Source of the DNA: the human T2T-CHM13v2.0 reference genome, Homo sapiens
NCBI RefSeq assembly: GCF_009914755.1
Contig: NC_060931.1
DNA length: 64,000 bases
Reading direction: 5' to 3' (one strand)
Shown: positions 36,423 to 64,000 of the stretch, one piece after another
Layout: every line of letters begins with the position of its first letter
Position numbering within the stretch: position 1 is the first letter of the stretch
Notes under the pieces: model-generated
Database searches by the model: none
Seen by the model: the letters and a program-made list of their open reading frames with translations, nothing else
What the model was told of the DNA's origin: nothing
Program-made: the position numbers and the translations under genes

Positions 36423-36737
<315 letters not shown>

Positions 36738-36849
36738 TAAGCAAGCCAATTTTTAAAATGACAACTGCAATTAGAGTTAAATGCTACAAAGACAATCTCA
36801 CAGGAAGATGGGATGTAGAATGATAAGGCTTTCAGAATAGTAAGAGAAA

Positions 36850-37032: not shown

Positions 37033-38159
37033 CTGTGAAACCAATGTGCAGTTGTGACACCAAAGCACAGTGTGGTTGAACACCCAAAAGAATATGCTTT
37101 TTTTCTGATTATCAAACAAACCCAAATCATCACAGTAGAGCATGATCTTAATAACAATCTCAAAAACTCAGGAGTAAACACTCAGATATGGAACTTTTCT
37201 TTTCTTTTTTTCCTTTTATAAGATGGAGTCTCACTCTGTTGCCCAGGCTGGAGTGCACTGGTGTGATCTCGGCTCACTGCAACCTCCATCTCCCAGTTCA
37301 AGTGATTCTCCTGCCTCAGCCTCTTGAGTAGCTGGGACTACAGGCATGCACCACCACTACAGGCATGTGCCACCACACCTGGCTAATTTTTGTATTTTTA
37401 GTAGAGATGGGGTTTTGCCATGTTGGCCAGGCTGCTCTCAAAATCCTGACCTCAGGTGATCCTCCCGCTTTGGCCTCCCAAAGACTTTTTTTTTTTTTTT
37501 TAATATAGAGACAAGGTCTCAGTATGTTGCCCAGGCTGGTCTCAAACTCCTGAGCTCAAGTGATCCTCCCACCTCAGCTTCCCAAAGTGCTGGGACTGAC
37601 TGGATGCAGTGGCTCATGCTTGTAAACTCAGCACTTTGGGAGGCCAAGGTGGGAGGATCGCTTGAGCCCAGGAGTTCAAGACCAGACTGGGTGATATAAC
37701 ACAACAGTAAACTTCAACAGGAGAGAGAATCTGTAAGCTTGAATATAGATCTTCTGAAATTATCTAGTCAGAGGACAAAAAAAAAAAAAAAGAATAAAAA
37801 AGAGAAAAGAAGGCTGGGCGTGGTGGCTCAAGCCTGTAATCTCAACACTTTGGGAGGCCAAGGCAGGCAGATTAAGAGGTCAGGAGTTCAAGACCAGCCT
37901 GGTCAACACGACAAAACCCCATCTCTACAAAAAATACAAAAATTAGCCGGGTGTGGTGGCACACACCTTTAGTCCCAGCTACCTGGGAGGCTGAGGCAGG
38001 AGAATCACTTGAACCCAGGAGGCGGAGGTTGGAGTGCAATGTGAGCCGAGACCACACATTGCACTACAGCCTGGGTGACAGAGCACGACTCTGTCTCAAA
38101 AAAAAAAAAAAAAAAAAAAAAAGAAAGAAAGAAAAAAAAAAGAGAAAGAGAAAAGAAAG

Positions 38160-38723
<564 letters not shown>

Positions 38724-38834
38724 TTAGCCAGTTATGAAGGCCACTGAGATCATGCCACTGCACTCCAGCCTGGGTGACAAAAGTCCAACTACATTTCAAA
38801 AACAAAAAACAAAACAACAAAAAAAAAACAAAAC

Positions 38835-42696
<3,862 letters not shown>

Positions 42697-42829
42697 TCGA
42701 ACTTGGTGCAGAAACTCACTCCAAATAAATTACCTTCGAAAATATTTACATAATGGTAGAAATATTCCAAAATTCCATATTTTGGGATTTATACACAAAA
42801 GATAAACAAATTAGAGGCCAAGAGGCTGC

Positions 42830-44042
42830 CAGAAGGGAAAAACGGGGCCTGGAAAGGCCATTGTGAGGAATGAGCTGGGCCTAAAGAGGCCACTGGCAGG
42901 CAGGAGCTGGGACTGCCAAAGCCACCGAAAGGCAGGAGCTTTGGACTGGGGAGGCTACAGTGAGGCGAGAGCTAGCTGGGCGTGGAGAGTCCACTGTGAA
43001 GCCGAGGCCGGGCACGTGCAGGCCTTCGAGAGGCAGGAAGCCGGGCCTGCAAAGGCCGACTGGAGGTCAAGTTCTGGGCCTGAAGAGGCCACCAAAAGTC
43101 AAAAGCGGGGCCTGGGAAGGCCGCTGAGAGCCATGAGCTGGGCTGGGCCGAAAGAGGCCACTGGGAGGCAGGAGAGGCTGGGCCTGGAGAGGCTGACTCG
43201 AGGAAGTTTTGCACCTGGAGAGGCCGCCGAGAGGACGGAGCTGGGCCCGGGGAGGCCAACTTGCAGCTCTTCCAGGCCCACTTCCAGGATGACTTGAGTA
43301 CGACTTAGGCATGCAGAGGCCGCCGGGAGGCTGGAGCTGGGCCTGGAGAGGCCGACTTCAGGACGATTTGGGCCTGCAGAGGCCGCCGGGAGGCGCAAGA
43401 TGGGCCTAGAGGAACCCACCGACCGGAGGCCGTTGGGGGCCTGGAGACGCCGTCGGAGGGCAGGAGCTGAGCCTGGAGAGGCCACCGTGAGGCCTGACCT
43501 GGGCCTGGGGAGCTTGGCTTCAGGAAGTTGTGGGCCTACCAGGGCCACTGGGAGCTGGGCGGGAGCTGAGTCCAAAGACGTTGTTGGGAGGCCGGAGTCG
43601 GGCGTGGAGACGCAGCTGGGAGGAAGAGCTGGGCCCGGAGAGGATGCCGGGAGGCTGCAAGTGGGTCTGGAGAGGCCGACTTGAGGAGGCCCGGCCTCTG
43701 CCTCCCGCATGGCGGCCTCTGCAGGCCCAGCTGTTCCTCCTGGCTGCATCTCTCGGCCCACATCCTGCCTCTCAGCAAGCAAGCTCTTTTGGCTCAGCTC
43801 CCACCGGCGTTTGTAGACCCCGAAGTTTCTGCAGCCAAGCTCTTCAGGCCCACATCCTGCCTCCCGGTGGCCTGTACAGTCCCAGCTCTGGCAGCAGAAG
43901 AGCGTCTGCAGGCCCCGCTGTGGCCTCCCAGGGGCATATCCAGGCCCAGCTCTCCCCCCACTGCGGCCTCCCGGGGCCAAGTCCCTGCCTGCTCCCGGCA
44001 GCCTGCGTGCGGCCCTGCTCCTCCCTCACGGGGGCCTGTTGA
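42830..44042. repeat. Degenerate GC-rich ~32-bp tandem repeat with a strand switch near 43690; most diverged copy of the array unit
   Basis: Monomer about gagctgggcctggagaggccgccgggaggcag, forward to ~43690 and reverse-complement thereafter, ending tcctccctcacgggggcctgttga. Confidence 0.85.
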
Positions 44043-45915
44043 GGCAGGGGCTCACGCGGACCTCTCTCGGCGTGGGAGGGGCCGGTGTGAGGCAAGGGGC
44101 TCACGCTGACCTCTCTCGGCGTGGGAGGGGCCGGTGTGAGGCAAGGGGCTCACACCGACCTCTCAGCATGGGAGGGGCCGGTGTGAGGCAAGGGGTCACG
44201 CTGACCTCTCTCTGCATGGGAGGCGCCGGTGTGAGCCAAGGGGTCAGCGTGGGAGGGGCCAGTGTGAGGCAAGGGGCTCACACCGACCTCTCTCAGGGTG
44301 GGAGGGGCCAGTGTGAGGCAAGGGGCTGACGCCGACCTCTCTCAGCGTGGGAGGGGCCAGTGTGAGGCAAGGGGCTCATGCCGACCTTTCTCAGCGTGGG
44401 AGGGGCCAGTGTGAGGCAAGGGGCTCACGCTGACCTCTCGGCGTGGGAGGGGCCGGTGTGAGGCAAGGGGCTCACGCTGACCTCTCTCTGCGTGGGAGGG
44501 GCCGGTGTGAGGCAAGGGGTCAGCGTGGGAGGGGCCAGTGTGAGGCAAGGGGCTCACGCCGACCTCTCAGCGTGGGAGCGGCAGGTGTGAGGCAAGGGGA
44601 CACGCTGACCTCTCTGCGTGGGAGGGGCCGGTGTGAGCCAAGGGGTCAGCGTGGGAGGGACCAGTGTGAGGCAAGGGGCTCACACCCACCTCTGTCAGGG
44701 AGGGAGGGGCCAGTGTGAGGCAAGGGGCTCATGCCGACCTCTCTCAGCATGGGAGGGGCCAGTGTGAGGCAAGGGGCTCAGGCTGACCTCTCTGCGTGGG
44801 AGGGGCCGGTGTGAGGCAAGGGCTCACGCTGACCTCTCTCGGCCTGGGAGGGGCCAGTGTGAGGCAAGGGGCTCACGCCCACCTCTCAGCCTGGGAAGGG
44901 CCGGTGTGAGGCAAGGGGTCAGCATGGGAGGGGCCGGTGTGAGGCAAGGGGCTCACACCAACCTCTGTCAGCGTGGGAGTGGCCAGTGTGAGGCAAAGGG
45001 CTCATGCGGACCTCTCTCAGTGTGGGAGGGTCCGGTGTGAGGCAAGGGGTCAGCATGGGAGGGGCTGGTGTGAGGCAAGGGGCTCACACCAACCTCTGTC
45101 AGGGTGGGAGGGGCCAGTGTGAGGCAAGGGGCTCATGCGGGCCTCTCTCAGCGTGAGAGGGGCCGGTGTGAGGCAAGGGGCTCACGCCGACGTCTCTCAG
45201 CGTGGCAGGGGCCAGTGTGAGGCAAGGGCTCACGCTGACCTCTCTCAGCGTGGGAGGGGCCGGTGTGAGGCAAGGGGCTCATGCGGCCCTCTCTCAGCGT
45301 GGGAGGGGCCGGTGTGAGGCAAGGGGCTCACGCCAACCTCTCAGCATGGGAGGGGCCGGTGTGAGGCACGGGGTCACGCTGACCTCTCTCTGCGTGGGAT
45401 GAGCCGGCGTGAGCCAAGGGGTCAGCGTGGGAGGGGACAGTGTGAGGGAAGGGGCTCACACCTTCCTCTCTCAGGGTGGGAGGGGCCAGTGTGAGGCAAG
45501 GGGCTCACGCCGACCTCTCTCAGCATGGGAGGGGCCAGTGTGAGGCAAGGGGCTCATGGCGACCTCTCTCAGCGTGGGAGGGGCCTGTGTGAGGCAAGGG
45601 GCTCACGCTGACCTCTCGGCGTGGGAGGGGCCGGTGTGAGGCAAGGGGCTCATGCCAACGTCTCTCAGCGTGGCAGGGGCCAGTGTGAGGCAAGGGCTCA
45701 CGCTGACCTCTCTCAGCGTGGGAGGGGCCACTGGGAGGCAAGGGCTCATGCTGACCTCTCTCGGCGTGGGAGGGGCCGGTGTGAGGCAAGGGATCAGCGT
45801 GGGAGGGGCCAGTGTGAGGCAAGGGGCTCACGCCGACCTCTCTCAGTGTGGGAGGGGCCGGTGTGAGGCAAGGGCTCATGCCGACCTCGCTCAGTGTGGG
45901 AGGAGCCAGTGTGAG
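44043..45915 (+). repeat. 49-bp G-rich minisatellite (VNTR) with 47-, 48- and 33-bp variants, ~1.9 kb
   Basis: Unit tgtgaggcaaggggctcacgctgacctctctcggcgtgggaggggccgg (tcac at 44101 and 44150). Short variant tgtgagccaaggggtcagcgtgggaggggccag. Confidence 0.96.
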
Positions 45916-45963
45916 GTAGCGACTCGCGCCTCTGGGCAGGGTGCCAGAGGCATGAGTTGGGCA

Positions 45964-47217
45964 TCAACAGGCCACCGTGAGGGAGGAAGTGGCCCGCACG
46001 CGGGCTGCCGGGAGGCAGGCAGGGATTTGGCCCCAGGAGGCCGCCGTGGGGGTGAGAGATGGGCCTGGAGAGGCCCCTGGGAGGCAAGAGCGGGTCCTGC
46101 AGAGGCTGTTCTACAGCCAGAGCTGGGCCTGTACAGGCCACCGAGAGGCAGTAGGTGGGCCCGAAGAGCTTGGCTTGAGAAAGTTCGGGGCCTACAAAGG
46201 CGGCTGGGAGCTGGGCAGGAGTTGAGCCAAAAGAGCTTGCTTACTTGCTGGGAGGCAGGGCCGGGAGACGCTGACTTCAGGACGACTTGGGCCTGCAGAG
46301 GTCGCCAGGAGGCCCAAGCTGGGCGTGGAGGAGCCCACCGACCAGAGACCATTTGGGGCCTGGAGACGCCATCGGAGGGCAGGAGCTGATCCTGGAGAGG
46401 CCACCGTGAGGCCTGACCTGGGCCTGGGGAGCTTGGCTTGAGGAAGCTGTGGGCGGACCAAGGCCGCCAGGAGATGGGCAGGCGCTGAGTCCAAAGAGGT
46501 TGTTGGGAGGCAGCAGTCGGGCCTGGAGACGCAGCCGGGAGGAAGAGCTGGGCCCGGCGAGGACACCGGGAGGCTGCAAGTGGTTCTGGAGAGGCCGACT
46601 TGAGGAGGCCCGGCCTCTGCCTCAAGCATGGCGGCCTCTGCAGGCCCAGCTGTTCCTCCTGCCTCCCAGCAAGCAAGCTCTTTTGGCTCAGCTCCCGCCG
46701 GCGTTTGTAGACCGCGAAGTTTCTGCAGCAAAGCTCTTCAGGCCCACATCCTGCCTCCCAGTGGCCTGCACCCAGAGTCCCAGCTCTGGCAGCAGAAGAG
46801 CGTCAGCAGGCCCCGCTGTTGCCTCCCAGGGGCGTCTCCAGGCCCAGCTCTCGCCCCACCACGGCCTCCCGCGGCCAAGTCCCTGCCTGCTCCCGGCAGC
46901 CTGCGTACGGCCCTGCTCCTCCCTCACGGTGGCCTGTTGAGGCAGGGGCTCACGCTGACCTCTCTCGGCGTGGGAGGGGCCGGTGTGAGGCAAGGGGCTC
47001 ACGCTGACCTCTCTCGGCGTGAGAGGGGCCGGTGTGAGGCAAGGGGCTCACGCTGACCTCTCTCTGCGTGGGAGGGGCCGGTGTGAGCCAAGGGGTCAGT
47101 GTGGGAGGGGCCGGTGTGAGGCAAGGGGCTCACGCCGACCTCTCTCAGCGTGGGAGGAGCCAGTGTGAGGCAGGGACTCACGCCTCTGCGCAGGGTGCCA
47201 GCGGCATGAGTTGGGCA
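45964..47217. repeat. Diverged edge copy of the 1,298-bp unit
   Basis: Same tcaacaggccaccgtgagggagga...tcctccctcacggtggcctgttga frame, but with indels, many substitutions and one fewer minisatellite unit. Confidence 0.9.
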
Positions 47218-50200
47218 TCAACAGGCCACCGTGAGGGAGGAACTGGGCCGCACGCGGGCTGCCGGGAGGCCGCCGTGGGGGCGAGAGCTGGGCCTGGAGA
47301 GGCCCCTGGGAGGCAAGAGCGGGACCTGCAGAGGCTGTTCTACCGCCAGAGCTGGGCCTGTACAGGCCACCGAGAGGCAGTAGGCGGGCGCGAAGAGCTT
47401 GGCTCGAGAAAGTTCGGGGCCTACAAAGGCGGTTTTGAGCTGGGCAGGAGTTGAGCCCAAAGAGCTTGCTTACTTGCTGGGAGGCAGGGCCGGGAGACGC
47501 TGACTTCAGGACGACTTGGGCCTGCAGAGGTCGCCAGGAGGCCCAAGCTGGGCGCGGAGGAGCCCACCGACCGGAGACCGTTTGGGGCCTGGAGACGCCA
47601 TCGGAGGGCAGGAGCTGATCCTGGAGAGGCCACCGTGAGGCCTGACCTGGGCCTGGGGAGCTTGGCTTGAGGAAGCTGTGGGCCGACCAAGGCCGCCAGG
47701 AGATGGGCAGGCGCTGAGTCCAAAGAGGTTGTTGGGAGGCAGCAGTCGGGCCTGGAGACGCAGCCGGGAGGAAGAGCTGGGCCCGGAGAGGACGCCGGGA
47801 GGCCGCATGTGGGTCTGGAGAGGCCGACTTGAGGAGGCCCGGCCTCTGCCTCCCTCAGGGCGGCCTCTGCAGGCCCAGCTGTTCCTCCTGGCTGCATCTC
47901 TCGGCCCAGCTCCTGCCTCCCAGCAGGCAAGCTCTTTTGGCTCAGCTCCCTCCAGCGTTTGTAGACCCCGAAGTTTCTGCAGCCAAGCTCTTCAGGCCCA
48001 CATCCTGCCTCCCGGTGGCCTGTACAGTCCCAGCTCTGGCAGCAGAAGAGCGTCAGCAGGCCCCGCTGTTGCCTCCCAGGGGCGTCTCCAGGCCCAGCTC
48101 TCGCCCCACCACGGCCTCCCGCGGCCAAGTCCCTGCCTGCTCCCGGCAGCCTGCGTACGGCCCTGCTCCTCCCTCACGGTGGCCTGTTGAGGCAGGGGCT
48201 CACGCTGACCTCTCTCGGCGTGGGAGGGGCCGGTGTGAGGCAAGGGCTCACGCTGACCTCTCTCGGCGTGGGAGGGGCCGGTGTGAGGCAAGGGGCTCAC
48301 GCCGACCTCTCTCGGCGTGAGAGGGGCCGGTGTGAGGCAAGGGGCTCACGCTGACCTCTCTCTGCGTGGGAGGGGCCGGTGTGAGCCAAGGGGTCAGTGT
48401 GGGAGGGGCCGGTGTGAGGCAAGGGGCTCACGCCGACCTCTCTCAGCGTGGGAGGAGCCAGTGTGAGGCAGGGACTCACGCCTCTGCGCAGGGTGCCAGC
48501 GGCATGAGTTGGGCATCAACAGGCCACCGTGAGGGAGGAACTGGGCCGCACGCGGGCTGCCGGGAGGCCGCCGTGGGGGCGAGAGCTGGGCCTGGAGAGG
48601 CCCCTGGGAGGCAAGAGCGGGACCTGCAGAGGCTGTTCTACCGCCAGAGCTGGGCCTGTACAGGCCACCGAGAGGCAGTAGGCGGGCGCGAAGAGCTTGG
48701 CTCGAGAAAGTTCGGGGCCTACAAAGGCGGTTTTGAGCTGGGCAGGAGTTGAGCCCAAAGAGCTTGCTTACTTGCTGGGAGGCAGGGCCGGGAGACGCTG
48801 ACTTCAGGACGACTTGGGCCTGCAGAGGTCGCCAGGAGGCCCAAGCTGGGCGCGGAGGAGCCCACCGACCGGAGACCGTTTGGGGCCTGGAGACGCCATC
48901 GGAGGGCAGGAGCTGATCCTGGAGAGGCCACCGTGAGGCCTGACCTGGGCCTGGGGAGCTTGGCTTGAGGAAGCTGTGGGCCGACCAAGGCCGCCAGGAG
49001 ATGGGCAGGCGCTGAGTCCAAAGAGGTTGTTGGGAGGCAGCAGTCGGGCCTGGAGACGCAGCCGGGAGGAAGAGCTGGGCCCGGAGAGGACGCCGGGAGG
49101 CCGCATGTGGGTCTGGAGAGGCCGACTTGAGGAGGCCCGGCCTCTGCCTCCCTCAGGGCGGCCTCTGCAGGCCCAGCTGTTCCTCCTGGCTGCATCTCTC
49201 GGCCCAGCTCCTGCCTCCCAGCAGGCAAGCTCTTTTGGCTCAGCTCCCTCCAGCGTTTGTAGACCCCGAAGTTTCTGCAGCCAAGCTCTTCAGGCCCACA
49301 TCCTGCCTCCCGGTGGCCTGTACAGTCCCAGCTCTGGCAGCAGAAGAGCGTCAGCAGGCCCCGCTGTTGCCTCCCAGGGGCGTCTCCAGGCCCAGCTCTC
49401 GCCCCACCACGGCCTCCCGCGGCCAAGTCCCTGCCTGCTCCCGGCAGCCTGCGTACGGCCCTGCTCCTCCCTCACGGTGGCCTGTTGAGGCAGGGGCTCA
49501 CGCTGACCTCTCTCGGCGTGGGAGGGGCCGGTGTGAGGCAAGGGCTCACGCTGACCTCTCTCGGCGTGGGAGGGGCCGGTGTGAGGCAAGGGGCTCACGC
49601 CGACCTCTCTCGGCGTGAGAGGGGCCGGTGTGAGGCAAGGGGCTCACGCTGACCTCTCTCTGCGTGGGAGGGGCCGGTGTGAGCCAAGGGGTCAGTGTGG
49701 GAGGGGCCGGTGTGAGGCAAGGGGCTCACGCCGACCTCTCTCAGCGTGGGAGGAGCCAGTGTGAGGCAGGGACTCACGCCTCTGCGCAGGGTGCCAGCGG
49801 CATGAGTTGGGCATCAACAGGCCACCGTGAGGGAGGAACTGGGCCGCACGCGGGCTGCCGGGAGGCCGCCGTGGGGGCGAGAGCTGGGCCTGGAGAGGCC
49901 CCTGGGAGGCAAGAGCGGGACCTGCAGAGGCTGTTCTACCGCCAGAGCTGGGCCTGTACAGGCCACCGAGAGGCAGTAGGCGGGCGCGAAGAGCTTGGCT
50001 CGAGAAAGTTCGGGGCCTACAAAGGCGGTTTTGAGCTGGGCAGGAGTTGAGCCCAAAGAGCTTGCTTACTTGCTGGGAGGCAGGGCCGGGAGACGCTGAC
50101 TTCAGGACGACTTGGGCCTGCAGAGGTCGCCAGGAGGCCCAAGCTGGGCGCGGAGGAGCCCACCGACCGGAGACCGTTTGGGGCCTGGAGACGCCATCGG

Positions 50201-53200
50201 AGGGCAGGAGCTGATCCTGGAGAGGCCACCGTGAGGCCTGACCTGGGCCTGGGGAGCTTGGCTTGAGGAAGCTGTGGGCCGACCAAGGCCGCCAGGAGAT
50301 GGGCAGGCGCTGAGTCCAAAGAGGTTGTTGGGAGGCAGCAGTCGGGCCTGGAGACGCAGCCGGGAGGAAGAGCTGGGCCCGGAGAGGACGCCGGGAGGCC
50401 GCATGTGGGTCTGGAGAGGCCGACTTGAGGAGGCCCGGCCTCTGCCTCCCTCAGGGCGGCCTCTGCAGGCCCAGCTGTTCCTCCTGGCTGCATCTCTCGG
50501 CCCAGCTCCTGCCTCCCAGCAGGCAAGCTCTTTTGGCTCAGCTCCCTCCAGCGTTTGTAGACCCCGAAGTTTCTGCAGCCAAGCTCTTCAGGCCCACATC
50601 CTGCCTCCCGGTGGCCTGTACAGTCCCAGCTCTGGCAGCAGAAGAGCGTCAGCAGGCCCCGCTGTTGCCTCCCAGGGGCGTCTCCAGGCCCAGCTCTCGC
50701 CCCACCACGGCCTCCCGCGGCCAAGTCCCTGCCTGCTCCCGGCAGCCTGCGTACGGCCCTGCTCCTCCCTCACGGTGGCCTGTTGAGGCAGGGGCTCACG
50801 CTGACCTCTCTCGGCGTGGGAGGGGCCGGTGTGAGGCAAGGGCTCACGCTGACCTCTCTCGGCGTGGGAGGGGCCGGTGTGAGGCAAGGGGCTCACGCCG
50901 ACCTCTCTCGGCGTGAGAGGGGCCGGTGTGAGGCAAGGGGCTCACGCTGACCTCTCTCTGCGTGGGAGGGGCCGGTGTGAGCCAAGGGGTCAGTGTGGGA
51001 GGGGCCGGTGTGAGGCAAGGGGCTCACGCCGACCTCTCTCAGCGTGGGAGGAGCCAGTGTGAGGCAGGGACTCACGCCTCTGCGCAGGGTGCCAGCGGCA
51101 TGAGTTGGGCATCAACAGGCCACCGTGAGGGAGGAACTGGGCCGCACGCGGGCTGCCGGGAGGCCGCCGTGGGGGCGAGAGCTGGGCCTGGAGAGGCCCC
51201 TGGGAGGCAAGAGCGGGACCTGCAGAGGCTGTTCTACCGCCAGAGCTGGGCCTGTACAGGCCACCGAGAGGCAGTAGGCGGGCGCGAAGAGCTTGGCTCG
51301 AGAAAGTTCGGGGCCTACAAAGGCGGTTTTGAGCTGGGCAGGAGTTGAGCCCAAAGAGCTTGCTTACTTGCTGGGAGGCAGGGCCGGGAGACGCTGACTT
51401 CAGGACGACTTGGGCCTGCAGAGGTCGCCAGGAGGCCCAAGCTGGGCGCGGAGGAGCCCACCGACCGGAGACCGTTTGGGGCCTGGAGACGCCATCGGAG
51501 GGCAGGAGCTGATCCTGGAGAGGCCACCGTGAGGCCTGACCTGGGCCTGGGGAGCTTGGCTTGAGGAAGCTGTGGGCCGACCAAGGCCGCCAGGAGATGG
51601 GCAGGCGCTGAGTCCAAAGAGGTTGTTGGGAGGCAGCAGTCGGGCCTGGAGACGCAGCCGGGAGGAAGAGCTGGGCCCGGAGAGGACGCCGGGAGGCCGC
51701 ATGTGGGTCTGGAGAGGCCGACTTGAGGAGGCCCGGCCTCTGCCTCCCTCAGGGCGGCCTCTGCAGGCCCAGCTGTTCCTCCTGGCTGCATCTCTCGGCC
51801 CAGCTCCTGCCTCCCAGCAGGCAAGCTCTTTTGGCTCAGCTCCCTCCAGCGTTTGTAGACCCCGAAGTTTCTGCAGCCAAGCTCTTCAGGCCCACATCCT
51901 GCCTCCCGGTGGCCTGTACAGTCCCAGCTCTGGCAGCAGAAGAGCGTCAGCAGGCCCCGCTGTTGCCTCCCAGGGGCGTCTCCAGGCCCAGCTCTCGCCC
52001 CACCACGGCCTCCCGCGGCCAAGTCCCTGCCTGCTCCCGGCAGCCTGCGTACGGCCCTGCTCCTCCCTCACGGTGGCCTGTTGAGGCAGGGGCTCACGCT
52101 GACCTCTCTCGGCGTGGGAGGGGCCGGTGTGAGGCAAGGGCTCACGCTGACCTCTCTCGGCGTGGGAGGGGCCGGTGTGAGGCAAGGGGGCTCACGCTGA
52201 CCTCTCTCGGCGTGAGAGGGGCCGGTGTGAGGCAAGGGGCTCACGCTGACCTCTCTCTGCGTGGGAGGGGCCGGTGTGAGCCAAGGGGTCAGTGTGGGAG
52301 GGGCCGGTGTGAGGCAAGGGGCTCACGCCGACCTCTCTCAGCGTGGGAGGAGCCAGTGTGAGGCAGGGACTCACGCCTCTGCGCAGGGTGCCAGCGGCAT
52401 GAGTTGGGCATCAACAGGCCACCGTGAGGGAGGAACTGGGCCGCACGCGGGCTGCCGGGAGGCCGCCGTGGGGGCGAGAGCTGGGCCTGGAGAGGCCCCT
52501 GGGAGGCAAGAGCGGGACCTGCAGAGGCTGTTCTACCGCCAGAGCTGGGCCTGTACAGGCCACCGAGAGGCAGTAGGCGGGCGCGAAGAGCTTGGCTCGA
52601 GAAAGTTCGGGGCCTACAAAGGCGGTTTTGAGCTGGGCAGGAGTTGAGCCCAAAGAGCTTGCTTACTTGCTGGGAGGCAGGGCCGGGAGACGCTGACTTC
52701 AGGACGACTTGGGCCTGCAGAGGTCGCCAGGAGGCCCAAGCTGGGCGCGGAGGAGCCCACCGACCGGAGACCGTTTGGGGCCTGGAGACGCCATCGGAGG
52801 GCAGGAGCTGATCCTGGAGAGGCCACCGTGAGGCCTGACCTGGGCCTGGGGAGCTTGGCTTGAGGAAGCTGTGGGCCGACCAAGGCCGCCAGGAGATGGG
52901 CAGGCGCTGAGTCCAAAGAGGTTGTTGGGAGGCAGCAGTCGGGCCTGGAGACGCAGCCGGGAGGAAGAGCTGGGCCCGGAGAGGACGCCGGGAGGCCGCA
53001 TGTGGGTCTGGAGAGGCCGACTTGAGGAGGCCCGGCCTCTGCCTCCCTCAGGGCGGCCTCTGCAGGCCCAGCTGTTCCTCCTGGCTGCATCTCTCGGCCC
53101 AGCTCCTGCCTCCCAGCAGGCAAGCTCTTTTGGCTCAGCTCCCTCCAGCGTTTGTAGACCCCGAAGTTTCTGCAGCCAAGCTCTTCAGGCCCACATCCTG

Positions 53201-56200
53201 CCTCCCGGTGGCCTGTACAGTCCCAGCTCTGGCAGCAGAAGAGCGTCAGCAGGCCCCGCTGTTGCCTCCCAGGGGCGTCTCCAGGCCCAGCTCTCGCCCC
53301 ACCACGGCCTCCCGCGGCCAAGTCCCTGCCTGCTCCCGGCAGCCTGCGTACGGCCCTGCTCCTCCCTCACGGTGGCCTGTTGAGGCAGGGGCTCACGCTG
53401 ACCTCTCTCGGCGTGGGAGGGGCCGGTGTGAGGCAAGGGCTCACGCTGACCTCTCTCGGCGTGGGAGGGGCCGGTGTGAGGCAAGGGGGCTCACGCCGAC
53501 CTCTCTCGGCGTGAGAGGGGCCGGTGTGAGGCAAGGGGCTCACGCTGACCTCTCTCTGCGTGGGAGGGGCCGGTGTGAGCCAAGGGGTCAGTGTGGGAGG
53601 GGCCGGTGTGAGGCAAGGGGCTCACGCCGACCTCTCTCAGCGTGGGAGGAGCCAGTGTGAGGCAGGGACTCACGCCTCTGCGCAGGGTGCCAGCGGCATG
53701 AGTTGGGCATCAACAGGCCACCGTGAGGGAGGAACTGGGCCGCACGCGGGCTGCCGGGAGGCCGCCGTGGGGGCGAGAGCTGGGCCTGGAGAGGCCCCTG
53801 GGAGGCAAGAGCGGGACCTGCAGAGGCTGTTCTACCGCCAGAGCTGGGCCTGTACAGGCCACCGAGAGGCAGTAGGCGGGCGCGAAGAGCTTGGCTCGAG
53901 AAAGTTCGGGGCCTACAAAGGCGGTTTTGAGCTGGGCAGGAGTTGAGCCCAAAGAGCTTGCTTACTTGCTGGGAGGCAGGGCCGGGAGACGCTGACTTCA
54001 GGACGACTTGGGCCTGCAGAGGTCGCCAGGAGGCCCAAGCTGGGCGCGGAGGAGCCCACCGACCGGAGACCGTTTGGGGCCTGGAGACGCCATCGGAGGG
54101 CAGGAGCTGATCCTGGAGAGGCCACCGTGAGGCCTGACCTGGGCCTGGGGAGCTTGGCTTGAGGAAGCTGTGGGCCGACCAAGGCCGCCAGGAGATGGGC
54201 AGGCGCTGAGTCCAAAGAGGTTGTTGGGAGGCAGCAGTCGGGCCTGGAGACGCAGCCGGGAGGAAGAGCTGGGCCCGGAGAGGACGCCGGGAGGCCGCAT
54301 GTGGGTCTGGAGAGGCCGACTTGAGGAGGCCCGGCCTCTGCCTCCCTCAGGGCGGCCTCTGCAGGCCCAGCTGTTCCTCCTGGCTGCATCTCTCGGCCCA
54401 GCTCCTGCCTCCCAGCAGGCAAGCTCTTTTGGCTCAGCTCCCTCCAGCGTTTGTAGACCCCGAAGTTTCTGCAGCCAAGCTCTTCAGGCCCACATCCTGC
54501 CTCCCGGTGGCCTGTACAGTCCCAGCTCTGGCAGCAGAAGAGCGTCAGCAGGCCCCGCTGTTGCCTCCCAGGGGCGTCTCCAGGCCCAGCTCTCGCCCCA
54601 CCACGGCCTCCCGCGGCCAAGTCCCTGCCTGCTCCCGGCAGCCTGCGTACGGCCCTGCTCCTCCCTCACGGTGGCCTGTTGAGGCAGGGGCTCACGCTGA
54701 CCTCTCTCGGCGTGGGAGGGGCCGGTGTGAGGCAAGGGCTCACGCTGACCTCTCTCGGCGTGGGAGGGGCCGGTGTGAGGCAAGGGGCTCACGCCGACCT
54801 CTCTCGGCGTGAGAGGGGCCGGTGTGAGGCAAGGGGCTCACGCTGACCTCTCTCTGCGTGGGAGGGGCCGGTGTGAGCCAAGGGGTCAGTGTGGGAGGGG
54901 CCGGTGTGAGGCAAGGGGCTCACGCCGACCTCTCTCAGCGTGGGAGGAGCCAGTGTGAGGCAGGGACTCACGCCTCTGCGCAGGGTGCCAGCGGCATGAG
55001 TTGGGCATCAACAGGCCACCGTGAGGGAGGAACTGGGCCGCACGCGGGCTGCCGGGAGGCCGCCGTGGGGGCGAGAGCTGGGCCTGGAGAGGCCCCTGGG
55101 AGGCAAGAGCGGGACCTGCAGAGGCTGTTCTACCGCCAGAGCTGGGCCTGTACAGGCCACCGAGAGGCAGTAGGCGGGCGCGAAGAGCTTGGCTCGAGAA
55201 AGTTCGGGGCCTACAAAGGCGGTTTTGAGCTGGGCAGGAGTTGAGCCCAAAGAGCTTGCTTACTTGCTGGGAGGCAGGGCCGGGAGACGCTGACTTCAGG
55301 ACGACTTGGGCCTGCAGAGGTCGCCAGGAGGCCCAAGCTGGGCGCGGAGGAGCCCACTGACCGGAGACCGTTTGGGGCCTGGAGACGCCATCGGAGGGCA
55401 GGAGCTGATCCTGGAGAGGCCACCGTGAGGCCTGACCTGGGCCTGGGGAGCTTGGCTTGAGGAAGCTGTGGGCCGACCAAGGCCGCCAGGAGATGGGCAG
55501 GCGCTGAGTCCAAAGAGGTTGTTGGGAGGCAGCAGTCGGGCCTGGAGACGCAGCCGGGAGGAAGAGCTGGGCCCGGAGAGGACGCCGGGAGGCCGCATGT
55601 GGGTCTGGAGAGGCCGACTTGAGGAGGCCCGGCCTCTGCCTCCCTCAGGGCGGCCTCTGCAGGCCCAGCTGTTCCTCCTGGCTGCATCTCTCGGCCCAGC
55701 TCCTGCCTCCCAGCAGGCAAGCTCTTTTGGCTCAGCTCCCTCCAGCGTTTGTAGACCCCGAAGTTTCTGCAGCCAAGCTCTTCAGGCCCACATCCTGCCT
55801 CCCGGTGGCCTGTACAGTCCCAGCTCTGGCAGCAGAAGAGCGTCAGCAGGCCCCGCTGTTGCCTCCCAGGGGCGTCTCCAGGCCCAGCTCTCGCCCCACC
55901 ACGGCCTCCCGCGGCCAAGTCCCTGCCTGCTCCCGGCAGCCTGCGTACGGCCCTGCTCCTCCCTCACGGTGGCCTGTTGAGGCAGGGGCTCACGCTGACC
56001 TCTCTCGGCGTGGGAGGGGCCGGTGTGAGGCAAGGGCTCACGCTGACCTCTCTCGGCGTGGGAGGGGCCGGTGTGAGGCAAGGGGCTCACGCCGACCTCT
56101 CTCGGCGTGAGAGGGGCCGGTGTGAGGCAAGGGGCTCACGCTGACCTCTCTCTGCGTGGGAGGGGCCGGTGTGAGCCAAGGGGTCAGTGTGGGAGGGGCC

Positions 56201-59200
56201 GGTGTGAGGCAAGGGGCTCACGCCGACCTCTCTCAGCGTGGGAGGAGCCAGTGTGAGGCAGGGACTCACGCCTCTGCGCAGGGTGCCAGCGGCATGAGTT
56301 GGGCATCAACAGGCCACCGTGAGGGAGGAACTGGGCCGCACGCGGGCTGCCGGGAGGCCGCCGTGGGGGCGAGAGCTGGGCCTGGAGAGGCCCCTGGGAG
56401 GCAAGAGCGGGACCTGCAGAGGCTGTTCTACCGCCAGAGCTGGGCCTGTACAGGCCACCGAGAGGCAGTAGGCGGGCGCGAAGAGCTTGGCTCGAGAAAG
56501 TTCGGGGCCTACAAAGGCGGTTTTGAGCTGGGCAGGAGTTGAGCCCAAAGAGCTTGCTTACTTGCTGGGAGGCAGGGCCGGGAGACGCTGACTTCAGGAC
56601 GACTTGGGCCTGCAGAGGTCGCCAGGAGGCCCAAGCTGGGCGCGGAGGAGCCCACCGACCGGAGACCGTTTGGGGCCTGGAGACGCCATCGGAGGGCAGG
56701 AGCTGATCCTGGAGAGGCCACCGTGAGGCCTGACCTGGGCCTGGGGAGCTTGGCTTGAGGAAGCTGTGGGCCGACCAAGGCCGCCAGGAGATGGGCAGGC
56801 GCTGAGTCCAAAGAGGTTGTTGGGAGGCAGCAGTCGGGCCTGGAGACGCAGCCGGGAGGAAGAGCTGGGCCCGGAGAGGACGCCGGGAGGCCGCATGTGG
56901 GTCTGGAGAGGCCGACTTGAGGAGGCCCGGCCTCTGCCTCCCTCAGGGCGGCCTCTGCAGGCCCAGCTGTTCCTCCTGGCTGCATCTCTCGGCCCAGCTC
57001 CTGCCTCCCAGCAGGCAAGCTCTTTTGGCTCAGCTCCCTCCAGCGTTTGTAGACTCCGAAGTTTCTGCAGCCAAGCTCTTCAGGCCCACATCCTGCCTCC
57101 CGGTGGCCTGTACAGTCCCAGCTCTGGCAGCAGAAGAGCGTCAGCAGGCCCCGCTGTTGCCTCCCAGGGGCGTCTCCAGGCCCAGCTCTCGCCCCACCAC
57201 GGCCTCCCGCGGCCAAGTCCCTGCCTGCTCCCGGCAGCCTGCGTACGGCCCTGCTCCTCCCTCACGGTGGCCTGTTGAGGCAGGGGCTCACGCTGACCTC
57301 TCTCGGCGTGGGAGGGGCCGGTGTGAGGCAAGGGCTCACGCTGACCTCTCTCGGCGTGGGAGGGGCCGGTGTGAGGCAAGGGGCTCACGCCGACCTCTCT
57401 CGGCGTGAGAGGGGCCGGTGTGAGGCAAGGGGCTCACGCTGACCTCTCTCTGCGTGGGAGGGGCCGGTGTGAGCCAAGGGGTCAGTGTGGGAGGGGCCGG
57501 TGTGAGGCAAGGGGCTCACGCCGACCTCTCTCAGCGTGGGAGGAGCCAGTGTGAGGCAGGGACTCACGCCTCTGCGCAGGGTGCCAGCGGCATGAGTTGG
57601 GCATCAACAGGCCACCGTGAGGGAGGAACTGGGCCGCACGCGGGCTGCCGGGAGGCCGCCGTGGGGGCGAGAGCTGGGCCTGGAGAGGCCCCTGGGAGGC
57701 AAGAGCGGGACCTGCAGAGGCTGTTCTACCGCCAGAGCTGGGCCTGTACAGGCCACCGAGAGGCAGTAGGCGGGCGCGAAGAGCTTGGCTCGAGAAAGTT
57801 CGGGGCCTACAAAGGCGGTTTTGAGCTGGGCAGGAGTTGAGCCCAAAGAGCTTGCTTACTTGCTGGGAGGCAGGGCCGGGAGACGCTGACTTCAGGACGA
57901 CTTGGGCCTGCAGAGGTCGCCAGGAGGCCCAAGCTGGGCGCGGAGGAGCCCACCGACCGGAGACCGTTTGGGGCCTGGAGACGCCATCGGAGGGCAGGAG
58001 CTGATCCTGGAGAGGCCACCGTGAGGCCTGACCTGGGCCTGGGGAGCTTGGCTTGAGGAAGCTGTGGGCCGACCAAGGCCGCCAGGAGATGGGCAGGCGC
58101 TGAGTCCAAAGAGGTTGTTGGGAGGCAGCAGTCGGGCCTGGAGACGCAGCCGGGAGGAAGAGCTGGGCCCGGAGAGGACGCCGGGAGGCCGCATGTGGGT
58201 CTGGAGAGGCCGACTTGAGGAGGCCCGGCCTCTGCCTCCCTCAGGGCGGCCTCTGCAGGCCCAGCTGTTCCTCCTGGCTGCATCTCTCGGCCCAGCTCCT
58301 GCCTCCCAGCAGGCAAGCTCTTTTGGCTCAGCTCCCTCCAGCGTTTGTAGACCCCGAAGTTTCTGCAGCCAAGCTCTTCAGGCCCACATCCTGCCTCCCG
58401 GTGGCCTGTACAGTCCCAGCTCTGGCAGCAGAAGAGCGTCAGCAGGCCCCGCTGTTGCCTCCCAGGGGCGTCTCCAGGCCCAGCTCTCGCCCCACCACGG
58501 CCTCCCGCGGCCAAGTCCCTGCCTGCTCCCGGCAGCCTGCGTACGGCCCTGCTCCTCCCTCACGGTGGCCTGTTGAGGCAGGGGCTCACGCTGACCTCTC
58601 TCGGCGTGGGAGGGGCCGGTGTGAGGCAAGGGCTCACGCTGACCTCTCTCGGCGTGGGAGGGGCCGGTGTGAGGCAAGGGGCTCACGCCGACCTCTCTCG
58701 GCGTGAGAGGGGCCGGTGTGAGGCAAGGGGCTCACGCTGACCTCTCTCTGCGTGGGAGGGGCCGGTGTGAGCCAAGGGGTCAGTGTGGGAGGGGCCGGTG
58801 TGAGGCAAGGGGCTCACGCCGACCTCTCTCAGCGTGGGAGGAGCCAGTGTGAGGCAGGGACTCACGCCTCTGCGCAGGGTGCCAGCGGCATGAGTTGGGC
58901 ATCAACAGGCCACCGTGAGGGAGGAACTGGGCCGCACGCGGGCTGCCGGGAGGCCGCCGTGGGGGCGAGAGCTGGGCCTGGAGAGGCCCCTGGGAGGCAA
59001 GAGCGGGACCTGCAGAGGCTGTTCTACCGCCAGAGCTGGGCCTGTACAGGCCACCGAGAGGCAGTAGGCGGGCGCGAAGAGCTTGGCTCGAGAAAGTTCG
59101 GGGCCTACAAAGGCGGTTTTGAGCTGGGCAGGAGTTGAGCCCAAAGAGCTTGCTTACTTGCTGGGAGGCAGGGCCGGGAGACGCTGACTTCAGGACGACT

Positions 59201-62200
59201 TGGGCCTGCAGAGGTCGCCAGGAGGCCCAAGCTGGGCGCGGAGGAGCCCACCGACCGGAGACCGTTTGGGGCCTGGAGACGCCATCGGAGGGCAGGAGCT
59301 GATCCTGGAGAGGCCACCGTGAGGCCTGACCTGGGCCTGGGGAGCTTGGCTTGAGGAAGCTGTGGGCCGACCAAGGCCGCCAGGAGATGGGCAGGCGCTG
59401 AGTCCAAAGAGGTTGTTGGGAGGCAGCAGTCGGGCCTGGAGACGCAGCCGGGAGGAAGAGCTGGGCCCGGAGAGGACGCCGGGAGGCCGCATGTGGGTCT
59501 GGAGAGGCCGACTTGAGGAGGCCCGGCCTCTGCCTCCCTCAGGGCGGCCTCTGCAGGCCCAGCTGTTCCTCCTGGCTGCATCTCTCGGCCCAGCTCCTGC
59601 CTCCCAGCAGGCAAGCTCTTTTGGCTCAGCTCCCTCCAGCGTTTGTAGACCCCGAAGTTTCTGCAGCCAAGCTCTTCAGGCCCACATCCTGCCTCCCGGT
59701 GGCCTGTACAGTCCCAGCTCTGGCAGCAGAAGAGCGTCAGCAGGCCCCGCTGTTGCCTCCCAGGGGCGTCTCCAGGCCCAGCTCTCGCCCCACCACGGCC
59801 TCCCGCGGCCAAGTCCCTGCCTGCTCCCGGCAGCCTGCGTACGGCCCTGCTCCTCCCTCACGGTGGCCTGTTGAGGCAGGGGCTCACGCTGACCTCTCTC
59901 GGCGTGGGAGGGGCCGGTGTGAGGCAAGGGCTCACGCTGACCTCTCTCGGCGTGGGAGGGGCCGGTGTGAGGCAAGGGGCTCACGCCGACCTCTCTCGGC
60001 GTGAGAGGGGCCGGTGTGAGGCAAGGGGCTCACGCTGACCTCTCTCTGCGTGGGAGGGGCCGGTGTGAGCCAAGGGGTCAGTGTGGGAGGGGCCGGTGTG
60101 AGGCAAGGGGCTCACGCCGACCTCTCTCAGCGTGGGAGGAGCCAGTGTGAGGCAGGGACTCACGCCTCTGCGCAGGGTGCCAGCGGCATGAGTTGGGCAT
60201 CAACAGGCCACCGTGAGGGAGGAACTGGGCCGCACGCGGGCTGCCGGGAGGCCGCCGTGGGGGCGAGAGCTGGGCCTGGAGAGGCCCCTGGGAGGCAAGA
60301 GCGGGACCTGCAGAGGCTGTTCTACCGCCAGAGCTGGGCCTGTACAGGCCACCGAGAGGCAGTAGGCGGGCGCGAAGAGCTTGGCTCGAGAAAGTTCGGG
60401 GCCTACAAAGGCGGTTTTGAGCTGGGCAGGAGTTGAGCCCAAAGAGCTTGCTTACTTGCTGGGAGGCAGGGCCGGGAGACGCTGACTTCAGGACGACTTG
60501 GGCCTGCAGAGGTCGCCAGGAGGCCCAAGCTGGGCGCGGAGGAGCCCACCGACCGGAGACCGTTTGGGGCCTGGAGACGCCATCGGAGGGCAGGAGCTGA
60601 TCCTGGAGAGGCCACCGTGAGGCCTGACCTGGGCCTGGGGAGCTTGGCTTGAGGAAGCTGTGGGCCGACCAAGGCCGCCAGGAGATGGGCAGGCGCTGAG
60701 TCCAAAGAGGTTGTTGGGAGGCAGCAGTCGGGCCTGGAGACGCAGCCGGGAGGAAGAGCTGGGCCCGGAGAGGACGCCGGGAGGCCGCATGTGGGTCTGG
60801 AGAGGCCGACTTGAGGAGGCCCGGCCTCTGCCTCCCTCAGGGCGGCCTCTGCAGGCCCAGCTGTTCCTCCTGGCTGCATCTCTCGGCCCAGCTCCTGCCT
60901 CCCAGCAGGCAAGCTCTTTTGGCTCAGCTCCCTCCAGCGTTTGTAGACCCCAAAGTTTCTGCAGCCAAGCTCTTCAGGCCCACATCCTGCCTCCCGGTGG
61001 CCTGTACAGTCCCAGCTCTGGCAGCAGAAGAGCGTCAGCAGGCCCCGCTGTTGCCTCCCAGGGGCGTCTCCAGGCCCAGCTCTCGCCCCACCACGGCCTC
61101 CCGCGGCCAAGTCCCTGCCTGCTCCCGGCAGCCTGCGTACGGCCCTGCTCCTCCCTCACGGTGGCCTGTTGAGGCAGGGGCTCACGCTGACCTCTCTCGG
61201 CGTGGGAGGGGCCGGTGTGAGGCAAGGGCTCACGCTGACCTCTCTCGGCGTGGGAGGGGCCGGTGTGAGGCAAGGGGCTCACGCCGACCTCTCTCGGCGT
61301 GAGAGGGGCCGGTGTGAGGCAAGGGTCTCACGCTGACCTCTCTCTGCGTGGGAGGGGCCGGTGTGAGCCAAGGGGTCAGTGTGGGAGGGGCCGGTGTGAG
61401 GCAAGGGGCTCACGCCGACCTCTCTCAGCGTGGGAGGAGCCAGTGTGAGGCAGGGACTCACGCCTCTGCGCAGGGTGCCAGCGGCATGAGTTGGGCATCA
61501 ACAGGCCACCGTGAGGGAGGAACTGGGCCGCACGCGGGCTGCCGGGAGGCCGCCGTGGGGGCGAGAGCTGGGCCTGGAGAGGCCCCTGGGAGGCAAGAGC
61601 GGGACCTGCAGAGGCTGTTCTACCGCCAGAGCTGGGCCTGTACAGGCCACCGAGAGGCAGTAGGCGGGCGCGAAGAGCTTGGCTCGAGAAAGTTCGGGGC
61701 CTACAAAGGCGGTTTTGAGCTGGGCAGGAGTTGAGCCCAAAGAGCTTGCTTACTTGCTGGGAGGCAGGGCCGGGAGACGCTGACTTCAGGACGACTTGGG
61801 CCTGCAGAGGTCGCCAGGAGGCCCAAGCTGGGCGCGGAGGAGCCCACCGACCGGAGACCGTTTGGGGCCTGGAGACGCCATCGGAGGGCAGGAGCTGATC
61901 CTGGAGAGGCCACCGTGAGGCCTGACCTGGGCCTGGGGAGCTTGGCTTGAGGAAGCTGTGGGCCGACCAAGGCCGCCAGGAGATGGGCAGGCGCTGAGTC
62001 CAAAGAGGTTGTTGGGAGGCAGCAGTCGGGCCTGGAGACGCAGCCGGGAGGAAGAGCTGGGCCCGGAGAGGACGCCGGGAGGCCGCATGTGGGTCTGGAG
62101 AGGCCGACTTGAGGAGGCCCGGCCTCTGCCTCCCTCAGGGCGGCCTCTGCAGGCCCAGCTGTTCCTCCTGGCTGCATCTCTCGGCCCAGCTCCTGCCTCC

Positions 62201-64000
62201 CAGCAGGCAAGCTCTTTTGGCTCAGCTCCCTCCAGCGTTTGTAGACCCCGAAGTTTCTGCAGCCAAGCTCTTCAGGCCCACATCCTGCCTCCCGGTGGCC
62301 TGTACAGTCCCAGCTCTGGCAGCAGAAGAGCGTCAGCAGGCCCCGCTGTTGCCTCCCAGGGGCGTCTCCAGGCCCAGCTCTCGCCCCACCACGGCCTCCC
62401 GCGGCCAAGTCCCTGCCTGCTCCCGGCAGCCTGCGTACGGCCCTGCTCCTCCCTCACGGTGGCCTGTTGAGGCAGGGGCTCACGCTGACCTCTCTCGGCG
62501 TGGGAGGGGCCGGTGTGAGGCAAGGGCTCACGCTGACCTCTCTCGGCGTGGGAGGGGCCGGTGTGAGGCAAGGGGCTCACGCCGACCTCTCTCGGCGTGA
62601 GAGGGGCCGGTGTGAGGCAAGGGGCTCACGCTGACCTCTCTCTGCGTGGGAGGGGCCGGTGTGAGCCAAGGGGTCAGTGTGGGAGGGGCCGGTGTGAGGC
62701 AAGGGGCTCACGCCGACCTCTCTCAGCGTGGGAGGAGCCGGTGTGAGGCAGGGACTCACGCCTCTGCGCAGGGTGCCAGCGGCATGAGTTGGGCATCAAC
62801 AGGCCACCGTGAGGGAGGAACTGGGCCGCACGCGGGCTGCCGGGAGGCCGCCGTGGGGGCGAGAGCTGGGCCTGGAGAGGCCCCTGGGAGGCAAGAGCGG
62901 GACCTGCAGAGGCTGTTCTACCGCCAGAGCTGGGCCTGTACAGGCCACCGAGAGGCAGTAGGCGGGCGCGAAGAGCTTGGCTCGAGAAAGTTCGGGGCCT
63001 ACAAAGGCGGTTTTGAGCTGGGCAGGAGTTGAGCCCAAAGAGCTTGCTTACTTGCTGGGAGGCAGGGCCGGGAGACGCTGACTTCAGGACGACTTGGGCC
63101 TGCAGAGGTCGCCAGGAGGCCCAAGCTGGGCGCGGAGGAGCCCACCGACCGGAGACCGTTTGGGGCCTGGAGACGCCATCGGAGGGCAGGAGCTGATCCT
63201 GGAGAGGCCACCGTGAGGCCTGACCTGGGCCTGGGGAGCTTGGCTTGAGGAAGCTGTGGGCCGACCAAGGCCGCCAGGAGATGGGCAGGCGCTGAGTCCA
63301 AAGAGGTTGTTGGGAGGCAGCAGTCGGGCCTGGAGACGCAGCCGGGAGGAAGAGCTGGGCCCGGAGAGGACGCCGGGAGGCCGCATGTGGGTCTGGAGAG
63401 GCCGACTTGAGGAGGCCCGGCCTCTGCCTCCCTCAGGGCGGCCTCTGCAGGCCCAGCTGTTCCTCCTGGCTGCATCTCTCGGCCCAGCTCCTGCCTCCCA
63501 GCAGGCAAGCTCTTTTGGCTCAGCTCCCTCCAGCGTTTGTAGACCCCGAAGTTTCTGCAGCCAAGCTCTTCAGGCCCACATCCTGCCTCCCGGTGGCCTG
63601 TACAGTCCCAGCTCTGGCAGCAGAAGAGCGTCAGCAGGCCCCGCTGTTGCCTCCCAGGGGCGTCTCCAGGCCCAGCTCTCGCCCCACCACGGCCTCCCGC
63701 GGCCAAGTCCCTGCCTGCTCCCGGCAGCCTGCGTACGGCCCTGCTCCTCCCTCACGGTGGCCTGTTGAGGCAGGGGCTCACGCTGACCTCTCTCGGCGTG
63801 GGAGGGGCCGGTGTGAGGCAAGGGCTCACGCTGACCTCTCTCGGCGTGGGAGGGGCCGGTGTGAGGCAAGGGGCTCACGCCGACCTCTCTCGGCGTGAGA
63901 GGGGCCGGTGTGAGGCAAGGGTCTCACGCTGACCTCTCTCTGCGTGGGAGGGGCCGGTGTGAGCCAAGGGGTCAGTGTGGGAGGGGCCGGTGTGAGGCAA
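47068..64000. repeat. Highly homogeneous 1,298-bp tandem array (macrosatellite), 13 full periods, continuing past the window end
   Basis: Near-identical ORFs recur at 47068, 48366, 49664, 50962, 52261, 53560, 54858, 56156, 57454, 58752, 60050, 61348 and 62646 (spacing 1298, twice 1299). Confidence 0.99.

What the first reader, a model, noticed from the sequence alone, without database searches (positions are those of the whole stretch)
47068..64000. Very recent macrosatellite expansion inside the SEPT14P-CICP duplicon, probably copy-number variable or lineage-specific
Seen: at least 13 units differ at only a handful of positions that I could find over ~17 kb, and the array is still open at the window edge. 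Inference: such homogeneity implies recent amplification or active gene conversion. Arrays like this collapse in short-read assemblies, so it may be unannotated. I do not recognise it as a named satellite (not SST1/NBL2, D4Z4, RS447 or TAR1).
Basis: partly seen in the sequence, partly recalled or inferred. Interest (0 to 1): 0.7.

Follow-up and report, generated by a model that had tools for sequence, protein, structure and literature searches.

The report
Known chromosome 7 teucer-ajax macrosatellite
This is a real array of 60 nearly identical 1.3-kb repeats on human chromosome 7 that the complete-genome papers already describe (teucer-ajax super-repeat, censat_7_2); it likely grew by unequal recombination within roughly the last million years, and whether its length differs among people is untested here.

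Summary
A 1,298-bp unit is repeated head to tail from window 47181. Beyond the window edge the array has 60 complete units plus a partial one and ends at chr7:56,607,510 (78 kb); 26 of 60 units are identical to the majority unit. It is not unannotated. Hoyt et al. describe the chr7:56525533 ajax-teucer 'super-repeat' of TELO_Comp under concerted evolution, and Lee 2026 cites the T2T CenSat label censat_7_2 NovelTandem, chr7:56524206-56610877. Added here: the unit is a chimera of the two teucer direct repeats that flank ajax in single-unit paralogues. It is right-copy type at 16 of 16 diagnostic sites and then carries the left-copy tail, which places a crossover at unit bases 562-657; chr1:227.16 Mb shows a separate crossover. 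Shared variants cluster in neighbouring units, as unequal exchange predicts. Units differ by 0.09-0.13%, against 2-4% for the duplicon flanks, so expansion or homogenisation is recent. The DUF4705 reading frame shows no coding selection. Copy-number variation and human specificity were not testable here.

The parts
42206..64000 (.). CenSat interval censat_7_2 (NovelTandem), chr7:56524206-56610877; continues to window-equivalent 128877
   Evidence: Lee 2026, PMC13015009 section 8; conversion; its right end coincides with the end of the G-rich 32-bp-period tract near 129000
36657..40739 (.). SEPTIN14P24 and CICP8 pseudogenes of the host duplicon (left flank)
   Evidence: RefSeq table supplied with the finding; flank 94.8-96.6% identical to chr7:45.98, chr7:55.90 and chr1:0.15 Mb copies
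43338..44050 (+). Left (5'-edge) teucer copy: unit bases about 304-1013, left type at 16 of 16 diagnostic sites
   Evidence: Hoyt locus coordinate 56525533 falls here (window about 43533; CHM13 v1.0 coordinate taken as nearly equal to v2.0)
44031..45916 (+). Long 49-bp (ajax-type) satellite array, about 40 monomers of 46-49 bp and 33 bp
   Evidence: TRF period 49; 39 monomer markers, two spacings of double length
45927..47180 (+). Older, diverged internal unit (teucer 94.7-97.4% identical to the array unit, plus a short ajax run 46931-47180)
47181..64000 (+). Homogeneous 1298-bp teucer+ajax array, units 1-13 of 60; continues to chr7:56,607,510
47181..47837 (+). Unit 1, G-rich part (bases 1-657), decayed 32-bp periodicity, right-copy type
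   Evidence: autocorrelation peak at lag 32; right type at 16 of 16 sites from base 312 to 561
47742..47837 (+). Inferred crossover interval (unit bases 562-657) joining right-type to left-type teucer
   Evidence: last diagnostic site at 561; right copies stop aligning at 657
47838..48185 (+). Unit 1, C-rich tail (bases 658-1005), an inverted relative of the G-rich part, found only in left and internal copies
   Evidence: bases 673-1013 match 361-35 in reverse at 75.6%
48186..48478 (+). Unit 1, ajax run with monomer spacings 48, 48, 49, 49, 33, 49 bp
   Evidence: spacings identical in 49 of 60 units
47421..47897 (-). 158-codon open frame repeated in each unit, matches Pfam DUF4705; likely non-coding
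   Evidence: match scored on the identical unit-2 frame 48719-49195; no synonymous excess after context control

Best explanation
This is the already described chromosome 7 teucer-ajax macrosatellite (TELO_Comp super-repeat, censat_7_2): 60 tandem copies of a chimeric 1,298-bp unit that likely arose by one unequal crossover between the two teucer direct repeats flanking an ajax array and was likely amplified and homogenised by repeated unequal exchange within roughly the last million years. Steps. (1) Shown: single-unit paralogues read left teucer (unit bases 304-1013), ajax, right teucer (1-657), so bases 304-657 form a direct repeat about 86-92% identical. (2) Shown: the array unit is right type up to base 561 and then carries the tail found only behind left copies. 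(3) Inferred: a crossover or template switch at bases 562-657 made the first internal unit before the chr7 45.97, 55.90 and 56.53 Mb loci separated, since all three carry internal units with this junction. (4) Inferred: at 56.53 Mb one unit variant expanded to 60 copies by unequal crossing over and conversion. (5) Inferred: it is selectively neutral, probably methylated, and probably variable in length among people; no function is needed to explain it.
For: Identity: Hoyt preprint section 6 names chr7:56525533 and three chr7 loci with tandem teucer-ajax subunits, evolving concertedly as a single unit; internal units were found at chr7:45.97, 55.90 and 56.53 Mb. Lee 2026 gives censat_7_2 with bounds that enclose the array. 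The T2T repeat library lists teucerv1_5edge, teucerv2_3edge, teucer3_internal and GAP_chr7_49bp. Chimera: 16 sites separate 9 left from 8 right paralogous copies; the array unit and the three other chr7 internal units are right type at 16 of 16; the chr1:227.16 internal unit is right type at 6 of the first 7 and left type at the last 9 of 9, a second, independent crossover. Turnover: 8 variants shared by two or more units give 26 adjacent carrier pairs against 7.0 expected, 0 of 10,000 permutations reaching it (unit 16 left out). Recency: mean pairwise difference 0.092% over the 1005-bp teucer part and 0.13% over whole units without unit 16; flanks 96.3-98.1% identical to sister loci. With a recalled rate of 0.5-1.0e-9 per base per year this is 0.5-1.3 Myr. 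6 of 16 variable teucer sites are CpG transitions while CpG bases are 120 of 1005, which fits germline methylation; Hoyt reports ajax arrays hypermethylated.
Against: Sequence alone cannot tell crossover from replication template switching, nor a recent expansion from continual turnover of an older array. Trees of the copies leave the chr7 sister loci unresolved, so a single origin of their internal units is not proven. The exact count of 60 depends on the assembly; a perfectly periodic stretch of 14.2 kb (units 45-54 region) is where a miscount could hide. The genome search scored only 17 of 48 candidate regions, so the list of paralogues is a lower bound.
Confidence: 0.85

Rival explanations
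1. The array is old (shared with other African apes) and only looks young because gene conversion keeps homogenising it.
For: Hoyt reports concerted evolution of pericentromeric ajax/teucer arrays. Teucer 5' and 3' edge models occur on gorilla, bonobo and chimpanzee X chromosomes. Some variants are shared by distant units (for example units 4, 31, 56, 57, 60), which looks like conversion.
Against: Sister chr7 loci hold one internal unit each. The terminal piece shares 7 of the 15 array-specific sites, all within bases 1-278, and then reverts to the ancestral type, as expected at the edge of a recent expansion. Lee 2026 reports the window maps in fragments, not as one block, in chimpanzee and gorilla, though chain projection is a weak test.
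Confidence: 0.25
2. The array is a selected regulatory element: a cluster of CTCF sites or enhancers acting as a methylation-sensitive boundary in 7p11.2.
For: A 2026 preprint finds teucer flanks rich in predicted CTCF motifs (5,023 per Mb), 99 ajax arrays on chr7 and a modest DiMeLo-seq signal. RefSeq lists enhancer tiles over the first units (table given with the finding). The unit is CpG-island-like.
Against: The preprint calls its results sequence-level hypotheses. My recalled loose CTCF patterns and the PRDM9 13-mer found no match in the unit (regular expressions, not weight matrices). Neighbours within 100 kb are pseudogenes and predicted lncRNAs. One to three copies suffice at the other loci examined.
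Confidence: 0.1
3. It is an amplified protein-coding gene family (FLJ44672-like, DUF4705), one 158-aa frame per unit.
For: Pfam DUF4705 match above the curated cut-off in 2 of 4 frames tested. The frame is open over unit bases 717-310 in 9 of 15 left and internal copies, and a crude count gave pN/pS 0.63, p=0.026.
Against: With mutation type and CpG context kept, the synonymous share is 48 of 134 against 0.32 expected (P=0.16), no better than other frames, with 5 stop-creating changes against 2.7 expected. 6 of 15 copies are broken. The peptide is a translation of a decayed GC-rich 32-bp repeat, a period not divisible by three. RefSeq calls the overlapping models pseudogenes.
Confidence: 0.04
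4. The expansion is an assembly or cell-line artefact of CHM13.
For: RefSeq's curated models cover only units 1, 2 and the first 656 bases of unit 3, the length of the terminal piece (655 bp), which suggests that the older assembly behind them holds about two units (inference from the gene table).
Against: 24 distinct unit sequences among 60, with position-dependent shared variants and whole-monomer length changes, which duplicating one read set would not give. Lee 2026 attributes the GRCh38 absence to a gap.
Confidence: 0.04

Closest known systems
TELO_Comp teucer-ajax super-repeat at chr7:56525533 (Hoyt et al., bioRxiv 10.1101/2021.07.12.451456)
   Same: Same place, 49-bp satellite bounded by a duplicated sequence, tandem teucer+ajax subunit, concerted evolution, one of three such chr7 loci.
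   Different: No difference found. The text I read gives no unit count, crossover point or age; Fig. 2F, Note S3 and Figs S14-15 were not visible and may hold them.
censat_7_2 (NovelTandem), T2T-CHM13 CenSat track, as cited by Lee 2026 (PMC13015009)
   Same: Interval chr7:56524206-56610877 next to SEPTIN14P24 and CICP8 encloses the whole array.
   Different: The interval also includes the left teucer, the long ajax run and the 3.4-kb downstream 32-bp tract; the paper does not dissect the unit.
Single-unit TELO_Comp copies (chr1:0.15, chr5:181.89, chr11:0.15, chr7:39.95, chr7:51.55 Mb and others)
   Same: Left teucer, ajax, right teucer and shared flanks; 84-93% identical to the unit.
   Different: No internal chimeric unit and no expansion.
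GC-rich macrosatellites D4Z4, DXZ4, SST1/NBL2, RS447 (properties recalled, not aligned here)
   Same: Kilobase, CpG-rich, near-identical tandem units that likely change number by unequal exchange.
   Different: No captured gene with coding signal, no known disease or X-inactivation role; unit is built from a 32-bp tract and a 49-bp satellite.

Membership tests
TELO_Comp teucer-ajax array (Hoyt et al.) | Variable array of a 49-bp satellite (ajax) | tested here: met
   Period 49 at 44031-45916 and in every unit
TELO_Comp teucer-ajax array (Hoyt et al.) | [quoted passage not shown] | tested here: met
   Unit bases 304-657 occur on both sides of ajax here and at 8 paralogous loci examined, 85.8-91.6% identical
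TELO_Comp teucer-ajax array (Hoyt et al.) | [quoted passage not shown] | tested here: inconclusive
TELO_Comp teucer-ajax array (Hoyt et al.) | Located at chr7:56525533, one of three chr7 loci with extra teucer-ajax subunits | tested here: met
   Coordinate falls at window about 43533; internal units at chr7:45.97, 55.90 and 56.53 Mb
TELO_Comp teucer-ajax array (Hoyt et al.) | Sequence match to the Dfam ajax and teucer models | not testable with these tools
   Only model names were seen, in Makova 2024 Table S44
TELO_Comp teucer-ajax array (Hoyt et al.) | Hypermethylated ajax | not testable with these tools
   Reported by Hoyt; only indirect CpG-transition excess here
censat_7_2 NovelTandem | Inside chr7:56524206-56610877 | tested here: met
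   Array spans 56,529,181-56,607,510
Copy-number-variable macrosatellite (D4Z4/DXZ4 kind) | Unit number differs among haplotypes | not testable with these tools
   One haploid assembly only
Protein-coding composite array (DUF4705 family) | Reading frame under purifying selection | tested here: not met
   No synonymous excess after context control, 6 of 15 copies broken

The most novel reading that the evidence does not exclude
The 60-copy expansion is human-specific and polymorphic over a wide range (from about two units, as the older RefSeq models hint, to sixty or more), and each added unit adds CTCF sites and a CpG-island-like enhancer, making it a dosage-variable, methylation-switched boundary in 7p11.2 comparable to DXZ4.
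Probability: 0.1. Interest if true: 0.55.

Novelty: already known. Interest (0 to 1): 0.15.

Why it matters
As an object it is already catalogued, so it is no discovery. It is a clean, readable example of how a macrosatellite is born: the founding crossover is still legible in the unit, a parallel event happened on chr1, and sister loci show the unexpanded state. If unit number proves to vary widely among people and to be human-specific, it would be a 78-kb structural polymorphism missed by GRCh38-based studies; I found no paper measuring that.

Tried and rejected
Coding role: rejected after the context-preserving control removed the crude pN/pS signal. A clean six-unit higher-order block suggested by the two 1265-bp units (37 and 43): variants form a patchwork, not a block copy. 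PRDM9 13-mer and loose CTCF patterns (recalled): 0 matches in the unit; 2 loose G-quadruplex patterns. Ajax hairpin: z -2.15 for one monomer, -5.9 for the 293-bp run, inflated by repetition, so only a weak hint of fold-back instability. Trees of teucer copies did not resolve the chr7 sister loci. The published Science versions of Hoyt and Altemose and the Y-chromosome paper were not held; the ape autosome supplements could not be read. Passage searches of Gershman, Altemose preprint, HG002, HPRC2 and the macaque paper showed nothing on this array in the passages returned.

Full report
Observation. The window carries a head-to-tail repeat of 1,298 bp. XhoI sites recur at 1298 or 1299 bp from 47403 to 62981 and the window matches itself at 99.9% over 15.8 kb. 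The 12 complete XhoI-to-XhoI units differ at 7 columns. Reading on in the same assembly, the array has 60 complete units from chr7:56,529,181 and a 655-bp terminal piece ending at 56,607,510, 78.3 kb in all. 26 of 60 units equal the majority unit and there are 24 distinct sequences. Length variants are gains or losses of whole 33- or 49-bp satellite monomers or one G.

Anatomy. Each unit has a G-rich 657-bp part with decayed 32-bp periodicity, a C-rich part of about 350 bp that is an inverted relative of it (75.6% over 356 bp), and a run of 49-bp monomers with spacings 48, 48, 49, 49, 33, 49. Left of the array lie a partial copy (43338-44050), a long 49-bp array of about 40 monomers (44031-45916) and one older unit (45927-47180). 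Right of it the G-rich tract runs on for about 3.4 kb. A genome search returned 261 matches from 17 of 48 candidate regions scored, with relatives at 84-93% on chr1, 3, 5, 7, 9, 10, 11, 19 and contig C24.

It is already described. [quoted passage not shown] That coordinate is window position about 43533. Table S44 of Makova 2024 (PMC11168930; supplement rows only) lists library models teucerv1_5edge, teucerv2_3edge, teucer3_internal and GAP_chr7_49bp; the edge models occur on gorilla, bonobo and chimpanzee X and not on orangutan or siamang X. That GAP_chr7_49bp is ajax is my inference from the name. A 2026 preprint (10.64898/2026.07.18.739380; section 7 and passages) counts 99 ajax arrays on chr7 and finds predicted CTCF motifs enriched in teucer with a modest DiMeLo-seq signal.

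How it arose. Single-unit paralogues read left teucer (unit bases 304-1013), ajax, right teucer (1-657), so bases 304-657 are a direct repeat, 85.8-91.6% identical at the 9 loci compared. Sixteen sites separate 9 left from 8 right paralogous copies. The array unit is right type at 16 of 16 (bases 312-561) and then continues into the C-rich tail, which follows only left copies. It is therefore a right-to-left chimera with its junction at bases 562-657, where left and right are most alike (73 of 79 identical at this locus over 562-640). The older unit at 45927 and the single internal units at chr7:45.97 and 55.90 Mb show the same pattern. The internal unit at chr1:227.16 Mb switches between bases 439 and 496, a second, independent event. 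The chimera is shown. That it came from unequal crossing over, not template switching, and that the three chr7 loci inherited one founding unit, are inferences; trees did not resolve the sister loci.

How it grew. Eight variants shared by two or more units give 26 adjacent carrier pairs against 7.0 expected, and 0 of 10,000 permutations reach it (unit 16, with a 146-bp loss, left out). Variation is concentrated in units 35-44, while units 45-54 are identical. The terminal piece shares 7 of 15 array-specific sites, all in its first 278 bases, then reverts to the ancestral type. Both fit local unequal exchange and conversion. Units differ by 0.092% over the teucer part and 0.13% overall, while the duplicon flanks are 96.3-98.1% identical to the sister loci. 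At a recalled human rate of 0.5-1.0e-9 per base per year this is 0.5-1.3 million years, after the human-chimpanzee split; it dates the last homogenisation, not necessarily the birth of the array. Six of 16 variable teucer sites are CpG transitions though CpG bases are 120 of 1005, which fits germline methylation.

Function. Each unit has a 158-codon minus-strand frame that matches Pfam DUF4705. A crude count gave pN/pS 0.63, p=0.026, in favour of coding, but with mutation type and CpG context preserved the synonymous share was 48 of 134 against 0.32 expected (P=0.16), with 5 stop-creating changes against 2.7, and 6 of 15 left or internal copies are broken. I read it as a translated GC-rich repeat. 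A regulatory role has thin support: predicted CTCF motifs in print, RefSeq enhancer tiles on the first units, a CpG-island-like composition; my recalled patterns found no CTCF or PRDM9 motif, which is a weak test.

What stays open. Copy-number variation and human specificity could not be tested with one assembly. RefSeq's curated models cover units 1, 2 and the first 656 bases of unit 3, the length of the terminal piece, hinting that the older assembly holds about two units, by collapse or as a short allele (inference). Searches for teucer, ajax, TELO_Comp, NovelTandem, the local gene names and 7p11.2 with HPRC returned no study of its population variation; passages of HG002 and HPRC2 papers did not mention it. 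The Hoyt supplement and the ape autosome supplement, which I could not see, may hold unit counts and ape comparisons.

Verdict. Real, recent, already named and annotated twice. The mapped crossover is a small addition. Interest 0.15.

Noticed in passing
L006 (chr1:227,159,381-227,163,516), internal unit 2636-1611: A second, independent right-to-left teucer chimera with its crossover between unit bases 439 and 496; the Hoyt text I read mentions extra teucer-ajax subunits only on chr7.
   Followed up: partly
window 47421-47897 (-) and 43099-43749 (-): Pfam DUF4705 (PF15788) matches translations of the teucer repeat and shows no coding selection, so the family may be built on spurious open frames; the predicted coding gene LOC124906629 just beyond the window lies on the same repeat.
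   Followed up: partly
window 47181-50432: Curated RefSeq pseudogenes and enhancer tiles cover only the first 2.5 units, and the third model's 656-bp length equals the array's terminal piece, suggesting lift-over from an assembly with about two units.
   Followed up: no
L026 2710-3063 (chr7:51.55 Mb): An extra copy of teucer bases 304-657 lies about 530 bp after the right teucer at this locus, unlike the other paralogues examined.
   Followed up: no
L040 1665-2026 (chr7:55.90 Mb): The second ajax run at this sister locus is made mostly of the short 33-bp monomer (9 of 11 spacings), a local expansion of a variant monomer.
   Followed up: no
window 47584-48064 (unit bases 404-884): The unit is an old imperfect fold-back (68% self-inverted) centred near base 645-657, the same place where the founding crossover maps; a hairpin-prone junction may have favoured the event.
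   Followed up: no
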